Shown one piece after another: positions 2,810 to 32,246 of a stretch of 64,000 nt of DNA. The DNA lies in IMG/VR virus record IMGVR_UViG_3300023063_000001, positions 1 to 64,000 of that record. One strand, written 5' to 3'. A program made the position numbers and the translations under genes. This DNA is from a virus. The notes beneath the pieces are model-generated. The model was not told the origin of the DNA. It saw only the letters and a list, made by a program, of their open reading frames with translations, and searched no databases. How positions within the stretch are numbered: the stretch's first letter is position 1; the number at the start of each line of letters is the position of its first letter.

Positions 2810-3082
2810 TTATTTATCTAATCCACGTATTACATTTTGTAGCATATCATTGATAACTTGCTGTGCAAGGTCGTGAGGCTCAGATATAGTCGAAAGGATG
2901 AGGAATTCTGGAACAATAGTGCTCCCCCATTGTTGAAATAAATCAGCCTCAGCCTCCTCTTTGGAATAATAAATAGGATTATTTAAATCCAAAGTTAGTA
3001 TATTGCTAGATTCTTGAGTGTACTCCACCTTGCTCGGATCAAGCATCCAGAAGTATTTCATCAGATCAGTAATCCGTATCAT
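2810..3082 (-). CDS. hypothetical protein
   Basis: 90-aa ORF overlapping the upstream ORF end. Confidence 0.55.
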   Translation of the reverse strand: MIRITDLMKYFWMLDPSKVEYTQESSNILTLDLNNPIYYSKEEAEADLFQQWGSTIVPEFLILSTISEPHDLAQQVINDMLQNVIRGLDK

Positions 3083-3284
3083 CTTCGGAAGGTGCTTTAG
3101 GCTCTTGCATCCAATGTGTATAGTAATTTGAAGGATCCATTACCATATTTTCATCTTTGCGTAGTTGGCTGTAGTGTACAGAAATCCAAGCTGTCCCATT
3201 CCAAGCTAAGACACAAGGACCATCTGAAGGTAATGGCCTAACATCTTTAGTGGCAAAGTAGTACATTTCGTTATGAATTTTCAT
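3066..3284 (-). CDS. hypothetical protein (DUF551-like, THWM motif)
   Basis: P..LP...VLAW...YTHWMQEP pattern; GAGGAG RBS. Confidence 0.55.
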   Translation of the reverse strand: MKIHNEMYYFATKDVRPLPSDGPCVLAWNGTAWISVHYSQLRKDENMVMDPSNYYTHWMQEPKAPSEDDTDY

Positions 3285-3305
3285 AACATTCTCCTCATTA
3301 ATTTA

Positions 3306-3851
3306 TTAATGACTCATAATTAACATCAGAATACATACTAACACACTAGCTCCAAAGAATACACATCCTTCTATATTATTTTTACCCTTCAAAGTGTCTA
3401 TTTGTGCAGGGTTTTGATCGTTTGAAACGACGTTCTCTTTTTGTGTGTGACCTACAGCCTCTTCCCTGTCATCGCTGTTTTGAGCATTGAATTGAGCCTT
3501 AACAGAGCGTGCTTTCTTGAGCAATACAATAGCTCTGTCACGCTTAGCTGAGACAATATTCAAAAGCTCTGAATACTCTTCAATGCTCATGTTACCAGCT
3601 TTGTATTCTTGTACAAGCTCTGTCATCTGTTGTGTAAGGGTCTGCACACGTTTTGCTTGAGGAAGAATCCTATCTTGGATTGAGACAGCAGCTTTCTTGT
3701 TGGGCTCAGGGTCTGCATAAGAAGACACACAAGCGCTACCATCAGGATTAAAATGCACCTTCTGTGACTTGGATTGACGATTACCAATCTGTTCACCAGA
3801 GTACTCGTAGCTATCGGCATTATTCCAAGAAGCAACTATGTAATTTCTCAT
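3306..3851 (-). CDS. hypothetical protein with coiled coil and C-terminal TM anchor
   Basis: 181 aa, AGGAG RBS, hydrophobic C-terminus. Confidence 0.7.
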   Translation of the reverse strand: MRNYIVASWNNADSYEYSGEQIGNRQSKSQKVHFNPDGSACVSSYADPEPNKKAAVSIQDRILPQAKRVQTLTQQMTELVQEYKAGNMSIEEYSELLNIVSAKRDRAIVLLKKARSVKAQFNAQNSDDREEAVGHTQKENVVSNDQNPAQIDTLKGKNNIEGCVFFGASVLVCILMLIMSH

Positions 3852-3956
3852 GACCTATCTCCTAAAGCTTTGTTTGTGTCTGTGTGATGATTGTACACCA
3901 ACAAAAGAAGCGCCACAAGGGCGCTTTAGGAGAAATTTCAGATTATTTTAAGCCAA

Positions 3957-4559
3957 TTACATTGGAGACCAACCGGGGACACTGAGCCTCACCAATGTAC
4001 GAAGAACATCTTCCATAACAGGTGTTGATTCATGCAACATTGTCACATTCCCCACATAAATCTTGTTTGCTTGCAAAGCAATACGTTGCAAATCTGATAA
4101 ATCTAGGTGACTACAATCCCCGCCTTCCCTAATTTCCCCACTCCACTCGCCAATATAGGCTGCTGAAGCTGCCACACTTGATGCTAAAATAATAGCTTCG
4201 TCAGGCCAATCCTCAGACCCTGCATTCCATTTGGGGATGTCGTCTTGCCATTTTCCTGCTGTGTGAATATGTGTTCTATGACCGCCACCATGAGTTTGAA
4301 GCTCAGGCACCCAATAACCATCAATGTGAACACCTTTACGACGGTGTGTTGTGTTAGCTTTGACCAGTCCTTGATCAATCATCAAATAAATAGGACCATC
4401 AGTGTCTACTTCCAGTAGCATTTGATCAATAGTAGGTTGCCACCGTTTAAGTTCAGCCGGAAGACCAACTTCTTTATGAAATGCTTTCATATACACACGC
4501 TCCATAGTGTGCTTTGGAAATGTTACGGCTCCCTTTTCTTTTACAATACTTTTCATCAC
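3957..4559 (-). CDS. 2OG-Fe(II) oxygenase-like protein
   Basis: HxD (GVHIDG), distal His (LHES) and terminal Arg (RTLVR) of the DSBH fold. Confidence 0.6.
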   Translation of the reverse strand: MMKSIVKEKGAVTFPKHTMERVYMKAFHKEVGLPAELKRWQPTIDQMLLEVDTDGPIYLMIDQGLVKANTTHRRKGVHIDGYWVPELQTHGGGHRTHIHTAGKWQDDIPKWNAGSEDWPDEAIILASSVAASAAYIGEWSGEIREGGDCSHLDLSDLQRIALQANKIYVGNVTMLHESTPVMEDVLRTLVRLSVPGWSPM

Positions 4560-27827: not shown

Positions 27828-28313
27828 GTGAAAAACTTGCAAGACTACTACAACCAAATTATTGATTGGAACAAGAAAGCCGGGGTTAAGGATTTCACCT
27901 ACGGCACCTTGGATTGGGAACGTGCTGTAGAACTCCAATCAAAGTTGTTGGTAGAGGAGAGCAGCGAAACGATTGAGTCTATTACTCACGGTAATATGGT
28001 AGAGTTGCTAGGCGGGGCTGTTGACACGTTTGTAATTCTAGCAAAGCTTATGGATATGCTAGAGAAAGCTGGTTTTGATGTTGAAGGCGGTATTCAACAA
28101 ATTATTGATAATAATCAAAACAAGATTTTCAATTCTTTTTACGAAGCTTGTGAAGCTAAAGAAAAGCTTGAAGTTCGTGACAAGAAAGAATACTATATTG
28201 AAACATCAGTATTGAATGGCTTATCTTTTTACACTTGTCGACGTGAAGATGGGAAGATTGCTAAACCTGTAGGGTTTGTTGCTGTAGAACTAAAGGAGTT
28301 CGTACCTAAATGA
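27828..28313 (+). CDS. MazG-like/all-alpha NTP pyrophosphohydrolase
   Basis: LVEESSE...ELL.G.VD and C-terminal DGKIAKP..F pattern. Confidence 0.7.
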   Translation: MKNLQDYYNQIIDWNKKAGVKDFTYGTLDWERAVELQSKLLVEESSETIESITHGNMVELLGGAVDTFVILAKLMDMLEKAGFDVEGGIQQIIDNNQNKIFNSFYEACEAKEKLEVRDKKEYYIETSVLNGLSFYTCRREDGKIAKPVGFVAVELKEFVPK

Positions 28314-29080
28314 CGCAGATTACTGTAGAGTATATTGATCATTGTGGCTCTGATTTAAGTGTAGCCAATGCCGCAAGAGTTTCTTTTGATAAGAAAAGTG
28401 AGTGGGAGCTTCCGATTGACGTCAAAGAGTTTATGGATCTTCCGCAAGCATTGGTGAGTGGGTGGCCGGAAAAGAATGGGTTTAAATTGGTAAATGGTTT
28501 ATTCCAACGACTTAAAGCATCCGACACAAAACTCATTAACTACCTAGCTAAACACAAGCATTTTTCACCATTCAATCACAGCTTCATTAGTGTTCGTGTA
28601 AAGGCTCCTATATTTGTGTGCAGGCAACTTGTGAAGCATAAATTCATGCCTTACAATGAAGTGAGTAGGCGTTATGTGACAGACAAACCTGAATTCTACA
28701 CACCTGATTCATGGCGACAAGCTGCTGAGAATGTAAAGCAAGGCAGTAGTGATGTAGAAGTAGACATCAGTCCTTTGCTTGAGATGGAGACATTAGATGG
28801 TAATGCTGTGATGCTACCTGATGAGGTTAACACTATTGCTCTACAAACCTATGAAGCTCTATTAAAGCAAGGGGTGTGTGCTGAAGAGGCCAGGATGGTG
28901 CTGCCACAGTCAATGATGTCTACATTCATTTGGTCTGGTACGCTGGGGGCTTTCTGTGATATGCTTGTCTTACGGCTTGATCCTCATACACAATATGAGA
29001 GTCGTTTGGTAGCGCAGCAAGTAGCAGAAATTGTTAAAGGGTTGTTTCCAGTTTCTTATAAAGCTTTGGTGGAGAAGTAA
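28310..29080 (+). CDS. thyX: flavin-dependent thymidylate synthase
   Basis: NAARVSF, H.SPF.H, RQLVKH...NEVSRRY, EEARMVLPQS, HTQYE.R. Confidence 0.95.
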   Translation: MTQITVEYIDHCGSDLSVANAARVSFDKKSEWELPIDVKEFMDLPQALVSGWPEKNGFKLVNGLFQRLKASDTKLINYLAKHKHFSPFNHSFISVRVKAPIFVCRQLVKHKFMPYNEVSRRYVTDKPEFYTPDSWRQAAENVKQGSSDVEVDISPLLEMETLDGNAVMLPDEVNTIALQTYEALLKQGVCAEEARMVLPQSMMSTFIWSGTLGAFCDMLVLRLDPHTQYESRLVAQQVAEIVKGLFPVSYKALVEK

Positions 29081-29655: not shown

Positions 29656-30637
29656 ATGAGTAACGCTGGTAAAGAAATGATGAGTCAATCAAAGTTTTAT
29701 ATGGGTTATTCCCGCTGGGATGAAATCAAGGGCGGTTATGAAACATGGGAACAATCAGTTTCCCGTGTAATGGATATGCACCGACAAAAGTATTCTTCTG
29801 TAATGACACCACAGCTTGAAGAGTATATTGCTTTTGCAGAACAAGCTTACAAAGATAAAGTTGTACTCGGCGCCCAACGAGCATTGCAATTTGGTGGTGA
29901 ACAATTATTCAAACACGAAACTCGTATGTACAACTGCTCAGTATCCCATTGTGATCGAGCCACTTTCTTTCAAGAGTGTATGTATCTTCTGCTGTGTGGT
30001 TGTGGTGTAGGCTTCTCAGTACAGTCACACCACATTGCAAAGCTACCCAAAGTTCATAAGCGATATGAAAAGAAAGTAAAAGTATTTCAGGTGCCTGATA
30101 CAATTGAAGGATGGGCTGATGCTTTTGGTGTTCTGTTCAGTAGCTACTTTGTAGATGGTGGTAGCTTTCCTGAATATAAGGGTTGCCAAGTTCACTTTGA
30201 TTTCAATAAGATTCGCCCTAAAGGTGCTTTGATTTCAGGGGGTTTTAAGGCACCCGGACCAGATGGCTTGCGTAGTGCATTAGTTAAGTGTGAAGCTTTG
30301 CTAGAAGCACTAGTTGAGGGTAAGACAGAGGCTGTAAGTGTACCTACCATCACAGCTTACGACTTTGTAATGCATATGTCTGATGCTGTATTAAGCGGCG
30401 GTGTTCGTCGCTCAGCTACAATTTGTATGTTTGATAAAGATGATGATTTGATGTTGAAGGCCAAGACTGGGGATTGGTTTGTTGATAACCCTCAACGCGG
30501 TCGTAGTAACAACAGCGTTATGCTAGTTCGTGATGAACTAAGCCGTGAAGAGTGGGCTAACATCATGAAGTCTGTTAAGGACTTTGGTGAACCCGGTTTC
30601 ATCTTCACAGAGAATAAAGAGTTCTGCTTCAATCCGT
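29656..30637 (+). CDS. nrdJ: class II (B12-dependent, monomeric-type) ribonucleotide reductase, exon 1
   Basis: YNCS, GCGVGFS, PDTIEGW, IRPKG, GGVRRSA, SNNS, GEPG; ends FNP plus the first base of the Cys codon. Confidence 0.88.
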
Positions 30638-30807
30638 AAAATTACATGCGGATTTAAAACCTTCTCTGATTGACTTGGAAGCCAAATATAAGGCGACAGG
30701 GCGCAAGGGTAATGCCAGCGTGAGAGACTAAGTGAGAGGGGCACTAAATAGTGTATGCGATAGTCCAGCGCACAGTCAGAACTATATTTGATTACTGACA
30801 GTGTGAG
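30638..30807 (+). mobile_element. ORF-less group I intron (170 nt)
   Basis: P1 with U.G at 5' splice site, P10, P3, P4-P6, P7 GAGACUA/UAGUCC, P8, P9, terminal G; removal restores NPCVEI. Confidence 0.92.
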
Positions 30808-32045
30808 GTGTAGAAATTGGTATGCTTCCAATTGCAGAAAATGGAGACTCTGGTTTTCAATTCTGTAATTTGACAGAACTTAATGGTAGCAAATGTGTGG
30901 ATAAAGAATCTTTCTTTAGGGCTTGTAAAGCCGGAGCTATTCTTGGGACCCTTCAGGCAGGTTACTCAAACTTTAAATACTTGTCAGATGCAACACGTCG
31001 CATTACAGAGAAAGAGGCATTGCTTGGGGTTAGTATTACCGGTTGGATGAACAACCCCGATGTGCTATTTGACCCACAGAATATGATTGATGGGGCCACA
31101 GTTGTAAAAGATATTAACTCTGTTGTTGCTATTTTATTGGGTATCAATCAAGCTGCACGGACAACAGCAGTAAAACCCTCTGGTAATGCTTCTGTAGTAC
31201 TAGGCACAGCTTCAGGTATCCATGGAGAACATAGCCCTAAGTATCTTCGTAATGTACAGATGAACGTAGGAGATGAGGTTACACGCATTATTACAAAGAC
31301 CAACCCTAAAATGGTTGAATCAAGTGTTTGGAGTAGTAATGGAACAGATGTTGTAGTTAGCTTCCCTGTTGAAAGTAAAGAGGGATCTATCTATAAATCT
31401 GATTTGATGGGCGTGAAGCAGCTTGAGTATGTAAAGACAGCACAGCAATATTGGATTGAACACGGTACAAACTATGAGCTTTGTGTTGACCCTGATCTTC
31501 GTCATAACGTAAGTAATACCATCACAGTTGATGATTGGGATGAGGTTGAGGAGTATATCTACAACAACCGTAAATGGTTTGCTGGTATATCCCTTCTCAG
31601 CTCTATGGGGGATCGCGCATATGCTCAAGCTCCATTCACAGAAGTATTCACTGCACAACAGATTGTTGATATGTATGGTGATAGTTCAATGTTTGCATCT
31701 GGTTTGATTGTAGGTGCATTACAAGCTTTTGGTAACAATTTGTGGATGGCTTGCGATACTGCATTGGGATATGGACTTAAACTTGACCCTGAAGATTCAT
31801 CAGACCTTTTAAAGCGTGATTGGGTACGACGTATCAAGAAGTTTGCTGAACGAAACTTTGAAGGTGATACTATGAAGCTTACGTTTATGCTTAAAGATTG
31901 TCATAATCTTCATAAGTGGGTGGGAATCAATAATAACTTTATTAATGTGGATTTCTCACAAGATTTGTCTCAGCAAAGCTATACAGAAGTTGATACAATG
32001 GGTAGCCAAGCCTGCGCAGGGGGTGTCTGCGAGATAAGCTTTTAA
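30808..32045 (+). CDS. nrdJ: class II ribonucleotide reductase, exon 2
   Basis: (C)VEIG, QFCNLTE, VKPSGN, HNVSNT, C-terminal CAGGVC; spliced product 739 aa; no nrdB nearby. Confidence 0.88.
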
Positions 32046-32054
32046 GAGAAAATA

Positions 32055-32246
32055 ATGGACTACAAAGAGCTAATGAAATCTGTGGGTGTACAATCATGTG
32101 TCACCCACTCGTGTCCTCAGTGTCAACAGCCGGTTAAATGCGAGGTTTCTCAAGGTAAAACCTTTTGTTGGTGCTTCAACGTACAGAGTAAAGGGTTGGA
32201 TATGAATGACGTTTGCATGTGTAAAAAGTGCCTTAAAGAGGCTTGA
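32055..32246 (+). CDS. cysteine-rich CWC family protein
   Basis: CPQC...C......CWC...CMCKKC. Confidence 0.8.
   Translation: MDYKELMKSVGVQSCVTHSCPQCQQPVKCEVSQGKTFCWCFNVQSKGLDMNDVCMCKKCLKEA

What the first reader, a model, noticed from the sequence alone, without database searches (positions are those of the whole stretch)
30631..30813. Ultra-compact 170-nt group I intron splitting the thiyl-radical Cys codon of class II RNR
Removing 30638-30807 joins AAT CCG T|GT GTA GAA ATT = NPCVEI and gives a 739-aa NrdJ. Visible pairings: P1 AAUCCGU/GCGGAUU with U.G at the splice site; P10 UUACAU with exon GUGUAG; no P2; P3 CCUUCUC/GAGAGGG; short P4-P5-P6; P7 G(A)GACUA/UAGUCC; P8 GCACU/AGUGU; P9; terminal G. 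It is about 35 nt shorter than the ~205-nt Azoarcus intron usually cited as a minimal natural self-splicer, so it may be among the smallest group I ribozymes. Unspliced RNA stops at UAA exactly at the catalytic Cys, so splicing gates enzyme activity.
Basis: partly seen in the sequence, partly recalled or inferred. Interest (0 to 1): 0.82.

Follow-up and report, generated by a model that had tools for sequence, protein, structure and literature searches.

The report
Compact group I intron in phage RNR
A 170-base RNA intron of the group I (self-splicing) type sits inside the codon for the essential cysteine of a phage ribonucleotide reductase gene; it is real and very small, but it is one member of a widespread family of small phage introns.

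Summary
Removing 30638-30807 (170 nt) joins AATCCGT|GTGTAG and gives a 739-aa class II RNR with one terminal stop. It is 96.3% identical to uninterrupted 739-aa homologues that read FNP-C-VEIG, where the window lacks only the Cys.

The insert has a full group I layout: P1 with U.G, P3-P9, a P3/P7 pseudoknot, P10 and a terminal G, but no P2. On 28 distinct relatives at the same N-P-C codon, 94.5% of pair cells pair, against 36.7-45.7% when partners are slid. 29 of 54 pairs change on both sides.

It is not unique. Family members measure 167-223 nt. Siblings carry a GIY-YIG endonuclease gene in the P8 loop. 0 of 80 related RNR loci have the intron.

Rfam RF00028 misses it even at E<=10. The "smallest" claim is weakened: 167-nt siblings exist, and a 2026 paper reports 2513 phage group I introns averaging about 206 nt. 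Splicing itself is untested.

This scan has found the same family before on other DNA.

The parts
29656..30637 (+). Exon 1 of the class II (B12-dependent) ribonucleotide reductase gene; ends with the first base (T) of the Cys codon
   Evidence: ORF 29656..30639. Pfam RNR-II_ins_dom, E 3.9e-06. Matches L. leichmannii RTPR 1L1L, E 5.1e-14. Aligns to residues 1-327 of uninterrupted homologues.
30638..30807 (+). 170-nt group I intron with no ORF and no P2
   Evidence: Model R2 gives 201.3 bits. Covariation on 28 relatives. Removing it restores NPCVEI.
30808..32045 (+). Exon 2 of the RNR gene; starts with GT, the last two bases of the Cys codon; the stop codon is included
   Evidence: In frame with homologues from VEIGMLP to the C terminus. 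The joined CDS is 2220 nt.
30631..30654 (+). P1 hairpin: exon AAUCCGU (30631-30637) pairs with guide GCGGAUU (30648-30654); U30637.G30648 lies at the 5' splice site; the loop holds the P10 strand UUACAU (30642-30647)
   Evidence: U.G in 28 of 28 rows. The Pro wobble base G/A/C/U is matched by guide C/U/G/A (pair 8-39: GC 24, AU 2, CG 1, UA 1).
30808..30813 (+). Exon-2 strand of P10 (GUGUAG), pairing with 30642-30647
   Evidence: 4 of 6 P10 pairs change on both sides and 75.2% of cells pair. P10 was not part of the model used for the alignment.
30660..30666 (+). P3 5' strand CCUUCUC; partner GAGAGGG at 30734-30740
   Evidence: 6 of 7 pairs change on both sides; 99.5% paired.
30674..30700 (+). 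P4 (CUUG 30674-30677 / CAGG 30697-30700) enclosing P5 (GCCA 30681-30684 / AGGC 30691-30694); A-rich J4/5 (GAA) and J5/4 (GA)
   Evidence: P5: 4 of 4 pairs change on both sides. P4 never varies, so covariation neither supports nor contradicts it. Both appear in the MFE fold.
30701..30721 (+). P6 (GCGC 30701-30704 / GCGU 30718-30721) with the small P6a hairpin (GG 30707-30708 / CC 30715-30716)
   Evidence: 3 of 5 counted pairs change on both sides; 100% paired.
30724..30730 (+). P7 5' strand G(A)GACUA with bulged A30725; partner UAGUCC at 30761-30766; forms the pseudoknot with P3. The presumed guanosine site is assigned from the textbook position, not tested
   Evidence: 100% paired; 1 of 6 pairs changes on both sides (AU 23, GC 5). 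P7 was not in the alignment model. In the longer family branch the outer pair reads A-U beside a bulged C instead of G-C beside a bulged A (read by eye).
30741..30754 (+). P8 hairpin GCACU-AAAU-AGUGU. Siblings carry a homing endonuclease gene in this loop
   Evidence: 5 of 5 pairs change on both sides. In L243 a GIY-YIG ORF lies between the P8 strands.
30769..30807 (+). P9 hairpin (30769-30779 / 30795-30805), then A30806 and terminal G30807
   Evidence: The basal 5 pairs are invariant. The 5 inner pairs change on both sides; 90.7% paired.

Best explanation
30638-30807 is a group I intron inside the mRNA of the phage's B12-dependent ribonucleotide reductase. The guide sequence pairs with the last seven exon bases (P1, with U.G at the cut).

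Inferred mechanism, from the textbook chemistry of this class:
1. A free guanosine bound in P7 attacks after U30637.
2. P10 aligns exon 2.
3. The freed exon-1 3'-OH attacks after the terminal G30807. This joins T to GT and recreates the Cys codon of NPCVEI.

Without splicing, translation ends at the UAA that spans the 5' splice site. The product is then a 327-aa fragment that lacks the cysteine and the C-terminal 411 residues.

The element is the endonuclease-free form of a mobile intron family that targets the NPC codon of many different phage RNRs. Siblings carry a GIY-YIG homing endonuclease gene in the P8 loop, which probably explains how the family spreads.

Shown: the anatomy, the covariation, exact frame restoration, the patchy distribution, and the endonuclease-bearing siblings.
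Inferred: that the intron splices, that it does so without protein help, and that homing brought it here.
For: 1. Frame restoration. The window's two ORFs align to uninterrupted 739-aa homologues with exactly one residue (Cys) missing between them. The script join gives 739 aa, 96.3% identical to P0001.

2. Structure. 28 distinct introns at the same codon show 94.5% paired cells, against 36.7-45.7% for slid partners. 29 of 54 pairs change on both sides, and 0 of 500 shuffles reach any measure. P7 and P10 were not in the aligning model, yet P7 pairs 100% and P10 has 4 of 6 covarying pairs. The smaller 12-row set agrees.

3. P1 tracks the synonymous Pro wobble base.

4. Same site in divergent hosts. 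Flanks read GTNP[C]SEIILRPYQ, GYNP[C]AEQSLANFE, ATNP[C]GEQPLPPYG and FNP[C]VEIG.

5. Patchy presence. 0 of 80 related viral RNR loci match the model, and 78 of 80 carry a contiguous AAYCCNTGY.

6. Mobility. L243 has the same 5' and 3' intron parts around a 201-aa GIY-YIG ORF (Pfam E 4.1e-07) in the P8 loop. 25 loci show such two-part matches.

7. The window copy scores third highest of all matches (201.3 bits). It keeps every invariant core base.
Against: - No RNA evidence: no RNA run holds the stretch.
- Rfam RF00028 gives no match in the window, in the genome or in 14 family loci, even at E<=10. By contrast it scores 41.5 bits on a different intron at the same site in L194.
- P4 never varies, so covariation does not back it.
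- The fold energy is only z = -1.74.
- The window copy has A.A mismatches in P5 and P9.
- With no P2 and few peripheral contacts, autonomous folding is not assured.
- The alignments were fitted to the model's helices (all but P7 and P10), which biases the pair counts toward the structure.
- No endonuclease gene was found next to the gene in the window.
- Of the 25 two-part loci, only two were examined.
Confidence: 0.88

Rival explanations
1. It is a genuine group I intron, but it cannot fold or react on its own. It needs a phage or host protein, or the ribosome acting as a chaperone, so it is not a minimal autonomous ribozyme.
For: It has no P2 and only short P4, P5 and P6. The window's P8 loop is AAAU where several siblings have GAAA (read). 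The fold energy is only modestly better than shuffles. An in-frame UAA spans the splice site in 23 of 28 distinct family members, which could couple splicing to translation termination.
Against: No cofactor gene was identified beside the gene. The family occurs in very different phages, including a cultured roseophage, a Desulfovibrio phage and leaf-litter and other metagenome phages. This argues against dependence on one specific host factor. 5 of 28 members lack the in-frame UAA.
Confidence: 0.25
2. It is a decayed intron that no longer splices, and the RNR gene of this phage is dead.
For: No RNA data. A.A mismatches in P5 and P9 of the window copy.
Against: Both exons are open and 96-97% identical in protein to intact homologues. 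The copy scores near the top of its family and keeps all invariant bases. Compensatory changes across the family show selection on the RNA.
Confidence: 0.05
3. It is a naturally split RNR made as two polypeptides, as reported for NrdJa/NrdJb-type genes. The 170 nt would then be an intergenic spacer.
For: Split nrdJ genes are in print, for example Thermus phage phiYS40 with a 12-nt spacer (passages of PMC3653736). An ATG at 30822 lies 13 nt after a GAGG.
Against: The break falls inside the Cys codon, so neither piece would encode the cysteine that every aligned homologue has at this position. That this cysteine is the essential radical site is established knowledge of class II RNR and was not tested here. 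The 'spacer' is a conserved, covarying RNA that also occurs in a capsid gene.
Confidence: 0.02
4. Ribosomes bypass the 170 nt by programmed hopping, as in T4 gene 60.
For: A stop codon sits exactly at the take-off position.
Against: The distance is far longer than the about 50-nt hop of T4 gene 60 (recalled, not from a call). The hop would have to start and land inside a single codon. The insert has the full group I helix set with covariation.
Confidence: 0.01

Closest known systems
Group I introns in phage ribonucleotide reductase genes (T4 nrdB and nrdD, Twort nrdE, SPbeta bnrdE/bnrdF), as summarised in PMC3653736 (passages read)
   Same: A self-splicing-type intron in a conserved motif of an RNR gene. 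The distribution among relatives is patchy, and some copies carry homing endonuclease genes.
   Different: The host gene is class II nrdJ, and the site lies inside the Cys codon of NPC. The core is about 170 nt with no P2. No P7.1/P7.2 elements lie between P7 and P3; that these elements mark the phage IA2 type is recalled, not from a call. Rfam RF00028 does not detect it.
Azoarcus pre-tRNA-Ile group I intron, 205 nt ('compact', PMC13168695, passages)
   Same: A small bacterial-type group I intron without P5abc or an ORF. It has the same helix order, P3-P9, with short junctions.
   Different: The window's intron is 35 nt shorter, lacks P2, sits in a protein-coding phage gene and is biochemically untested. 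The details of Azoarcus architecture are recalled, not taken from a call.
Small group I introns of jumbo gut (Jug) phages (PMC12880540, Sci Adv 2026; passages)
   Same: Many ORF-less group I introns of about 200 nt split essential phage genes, including RNR (nrdD). Free-standing and intronic endonucleases occur nearby. Splicing was shown by metatranscriptome reads for 37 of 76.
   Different: Those were found with subtype covariance models in Bacteroides phages. Whether any belongs to this family, or is as short as 170 nt, is in supplementary tables that I could not open.
A second, unrelated-looking group I intron at the same nucleotide position in a 73%-identical RNR (L194/L195)
   Same: Same T|GT insertion point after AATCCGT.
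   Different: It is about 820 nt long and contains a long ORF. RF00028 recognises it below threshold (41.5 bits, E 6.6e-09), but model R2 does not.

Membership tests
Group I intron | P1 helix between the end of exon 1 and an internal guide sequence, with a U.G wobble at the 5' splice site | tested here: met
   AAUCCGU/GCGGAUU in the window. U.G in 28 of 28 rows, and one pair covaries with the Pro wobble base.
Group I intron | Conserved core: P4-P5-P6 and P3-P8-P7 domains with a P3/P7 pseudoknot, in the canonical order | tested here: met
   All helices are present. Pairs changing on both sides: P3 6/7, P5 4/4, P6 3/5, P7 1/6, P8 5/5. P4 is invariant and so unsupported by covariation.
Group I intron | Guanosine-binding P7 with a bulged base next to a G-C pair | tested here: inconclusive
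   G30724-C30766, bulged A30725 and G30726-C30765 are present and invariant in 28 rows. Guanosine binding itself cannot be tested here.
Group I intron | The intron's last base is G, and P10 pairs the guide region with the start of exon 2 | tested here: met
   G30807. The 23 introns whose ends were resolved all end in G before exon 2. P10: 75.2% paired, 4 of 6 pairs covary.
Group I intron | Removal restores the host reading frame exactly | tested here: met
   739 aa with NPCVEI, against uninterrupted homologues.
Group I intron | Match to the curated Rfam model RF00028 | tested here: not met
   No match at the gathering score or at E<=10 in the window, the genome or 14 family loci. The model did score a different intron at the same site. 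This concerns the sensitivity of one model, not a structural feature.
Group I intron | Guanosine-dependent splicing in vitro, or spliced RNA in vivo | not testable with these tools
   No RNA run holds the stretch.
Mobile (homing) group I intron | Homing endonuclease gene inside the intron | tested here: not met
   No ORF of 40 aa or more lies on the + strand within 30638-30807. Sibling L243 has a GIY-YIG ORF in the P8 loop, so the window copy is an endonuclease-free form.
Mobile (homing) group I intron | Present or absent among close relatives at one fixed site | tested here: met
   0 of 80 related loci carry it and 78 of 80 have the empty site. The same site is occupied in divergent RNRs.
Naturally split NrdJ (two polypeptides) | Each piece is a complete ORF, and together they encode all catalytic residues | tested here: not met
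   The Cys codon is divided T|GT by the insert.
Subgroup IC3 or IA2 assignment | Match to subgroup-specific covariance models and the peripheral elements P2 and P7.1/P7.2 | not tested
   No subgroup models were available. P2 is absent and no helices lie between P7 and P3, so neither subgroup's recalled layout fits fully.

The most novel reading that the evidence does not exclude
The P2-less introns of 167-190 nt at the RNR NPC codon are autonomous self-splicers. If so, they would be the smallest natural group I ribozymes characterised so far: a new minimal scaffold about 35 nt below Azoarcus. A cultured host-phage pair (roseophage CRP-118) is available to prove it.
Probability: 0.3. Interest if true: 0.6.

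Novelty: new member of a known kind. Interest (0 to 1): 0.42.

Why it matters
For annotation. Standard tools split this RNR into two 'genes' and miss the intron.
- In GenBank, the cultured roseophage CRP-118 carries the same intron between two CDS that are both called ribonucleotide reductase.
- Its paper never mentions an intron: 0 occurrences of the word.
- In MW202674 a 'hypothetical protein' is annotated inside a sibling intron.
- A family model such as R2 would repair many phage gene calls.

For RNA biology. A core of about 170 nt that keeps every canonical helix except P2 would be a convenient minimal system for folding and structural work, if it proves to be catalytically active.

For phage evolution. 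The same codon of the RNR active site is used by this family and by a second, different intron (L194). Unchecked notes of this scan also place split inteins next to it. The site is therefore a hot spot for selfish elements.

Tried and rejected
- Rfam. No match for the whole window at the gathering score. No group I match at E<=10 in 30500-30950, in 14 family loci, in a longer-branch intron in L017 or in the whole genome.
- Model R1. I gave it a dot-bracket string that nested the P3/P7 pseudoknot wrongly. Its structure is invalid, so I used it only for copy counts and rebuilt it as R2.
- Fold energy. The right helices appear, but z is only -1.74. I do not use this as evidence of function.
- Expression. 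No RNA holder is listed. Read laying was not run, because only DNA contigs were on offer.
- Co-conversion. The exons differ from the 11 closest intron-less relatives at 15-18% of bases, with no clear peak at the junction. The window's CCG Pro codon differs from all 11 (CCT or CCC). That fits either a short conversion tract or selection for P1, so the result is inconclusive.
- Neighbouring genes. ThyX and a Cys-rich CWC protein; no endonuclease was found.
- Literature, all 10 searches. None turned up this family, an nrdJ intron at this codon, or a printed 'smallest group I intron' statement. One search returned mostly irrelevant papers. Of the three hits that I opened, none uses 'smallest' about an intron.
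- The intron database paper PMC11835236 gives no minimum length in the section and passages I read.
- Supplementary tables of PMC12880540 and the database behind PMC11835236 could hold introns of 170 nt or less, or this very family. I could not see them.
- Subgroup assignment was not attempted, for lack of models.
- The metagenome-contig scan was not used.

Full report
What is there. The window is part of a complete 83,571-bp phage record with terminal repeats. On the + strand an ORF at 29656-30639 encodes the N-terminal 327 residues of a B12-dependent (class II) ribonucleotide reductase. Evidence: Pfam RNR-II_ins_dom and the L. leichmannii enzyme 1L1L at E 5.1e-14. A second frame continues from 30808 to 32045. 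Thousands of longer homologues exist. The closest are 739 aa, uninterrupted and 97% identical over the exon-2 query. Aligned with the two window pieces they read ...FCFNP-C-VEIGMLP..., and the window lacks exactly that one cysteine. Removing 30638-30807 in a script gives a 2220-nt frame: 739 aa, one terminal stop, 96.3% identity to P0001, and FNPCVEIG at the junction.

The RNA. The minimum-free-energy fold recovers P1, P3, P4, P5, P6, P6a, P8 and P9 on its own, although its energy is only z = -1.74. A blastn search of GenBank phages found the same core in three places: the cultured roseophage CRP-118 at the same RNR codon, a P22-like coat gene of a metagenome podovirus, and a Desulfovibrio phage. 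Two shared motifs found 115 stretches in IMG/VR. A motif specific to the RNR branch found 70.

These sequences fall into two groups:
- A compact branch ends ...GUGUGAG|G.
- A longer branch has extra 3' hairpins and sits in other genes.

I resolved 28 distinct compact introns, all at the N-P-[C] codon of RNRs whose flanking protein sequences differ widely. For 23 of them the ends were fixed by pattern. Their lengths are 167 (three), 170 (the window), 172-190, and one of 223. The window's copy is therefore typical of its family and not the shortest.

Covariation. My first model (R1) nested the P3/P7 pseudoknot wrongly and was discarded. R2 leaves P7 unpaired. On the 28-row alignment made with R2, I counted my structure with P7 and P10 added as pseudoknots:
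- 94.5% of cells pair, against 36.7-45.7% when the 3' partners are slid by 1-3 columns.
- 29 of 54 pairs change on both sides.
- 0 of 500 shuffles reach any measure.

Pairs changing on both sides, per helix: P1 1/7, P10 4/6, P3 6/7, P4 0/4 (invariant), P5 4/4, P6/P6a 3/5, P7 1/6, P8 5/5, P9 5/10. The P1 change follows the synonymous third base of the Pro codon. The alignment was fitted to the model's helices, which favours them, but P7 and P10 were not in the model. The 12-row set gave the same picture.

Junction lengths, read from the window sequence: J4/5 GAA, J5/4 GA, J6/7 GA, J8/7 AUGCGA, and five bases between P1 and P3 with no P2. From memory they fit the textbook group I core.

Mobility. 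None of 80 related viral RNR loci has the intron, and 78 carry the uninterrupted AAYCCNTGY. In L243 the same 5' and 3' intron parts flank a 201-aa GIY-YIG ORF that sits in the P8 loop. 25 loci show such two-part matches; I examined only L243 and L108. In L108 the 144-aa ORF has no Pfam match. The window copy has no ORF and no endonuclease gene nearby. I read it as the endonuclease-free form of a homing intron; that reading is inference. A test for a co-conversion tract was inconclusive. In genomes of 185,579 prokaryote species the family motif occurs only twice, so this is essentially a phage element.

Detection and the literature. Rfam RF00028 does not see the intron or its relatives, even at E<=10. 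It does score a different, about 820-nt intron at the very same nucleotide in L194 (41.5 bits), which serves as a positive control. Ten literature searches found no description of this family. The paper on CRP-118 never uses the word intron.

Small phage group I introns as such are in print, however: 2513 in jumbo gut phages, averaging about 206 nt, with 37 of 76 confirmed as spliced by RNA reads (passages of PMC12880540). Earlier follow-ups of this scan had already described this same compact family on other DNA. My independent tests agree with them.

Verdict. This is a real group I intron by every structural and comparative test available. It belongs to a widespread family of compact phage introns that I did not find described in print. 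The claim to exceptional smallness is only partly tenable, and actual splicing has not been shown. No RNA run was available.

Noticed in passing
L194 2467-3282 (also L195): A different intron of about 820 nt, containing a long ORF, sits at exactly the same T|GT position of the NPC codon in a 73%-identical RNR. Rfam RF00028 scores it 41.5 bits, below the cut-off of 50; model R2 does not match it.
   Followed up: partly
L188 about 2900-4400: An RNR relative is interrupted after KPSGNA. What follows looks like an intein start (C-T-T-F...), a stop, and then an ORF with a GIY-YIG-like motif. This resembles the 'fractured gene' arrangement of PMC2677866.
   Followed up: no
L062 4996-6425; also L032, L039, L041, L072: Several viral contigs hold three or four copies of the longer branch of this intron family within 1-3 kb. 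Some phage genes are therefore cut into many short exons.
   Followed up: no
L001 (OR420741, roseophage CRP-118) 3008-3179: This cultured phage carries a 172-nt sibling intron at the same codon. GenBank shows two separate 'ribonucleotide reductase' CDS (gp44, gp45) and no intron, and its paper does not mention one.
   Followed up: yes
L002 (MW202674) 3008-3127: A 'hypothetical protein' (UOF80274.1) is annotated inside a family intron that splits a P22-like coat protein gene.
   Followed up: partly
L252 (Methanobacterium MAG contig) 2266-2872; L253 (Bacillus pseudomycoides) 2663-2834: These are the only two hits of the family motif among 185,579 prokaryote species genomes. L252 has two copies 250 nt apart. 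Whether they lie in prophage or contaminating phage DNA was not examined.
   Followed up: no
window 30637-30639: The in-frame stop UAA is built from the last exon base plus the first two intron bases. 23 of 28 distinct family members share this; the other 5 begin UAGCC and read on. This may link translation termination and P1 formation.
   Followed up: partly
window 30538-30831, minus strand: A 97-aa antisense ORF overlaps the whole intron and both exon ends. It is probably spurious.
   Followed up: no
window 28310-29077 and 32055-32243: The RNR gene lies in a nucleotide-metabolism cluster. ThyX (PF02511) is upstream and a small Cys-rich CWC protein (PF14375) is directly downstream.
   Followed up: partly
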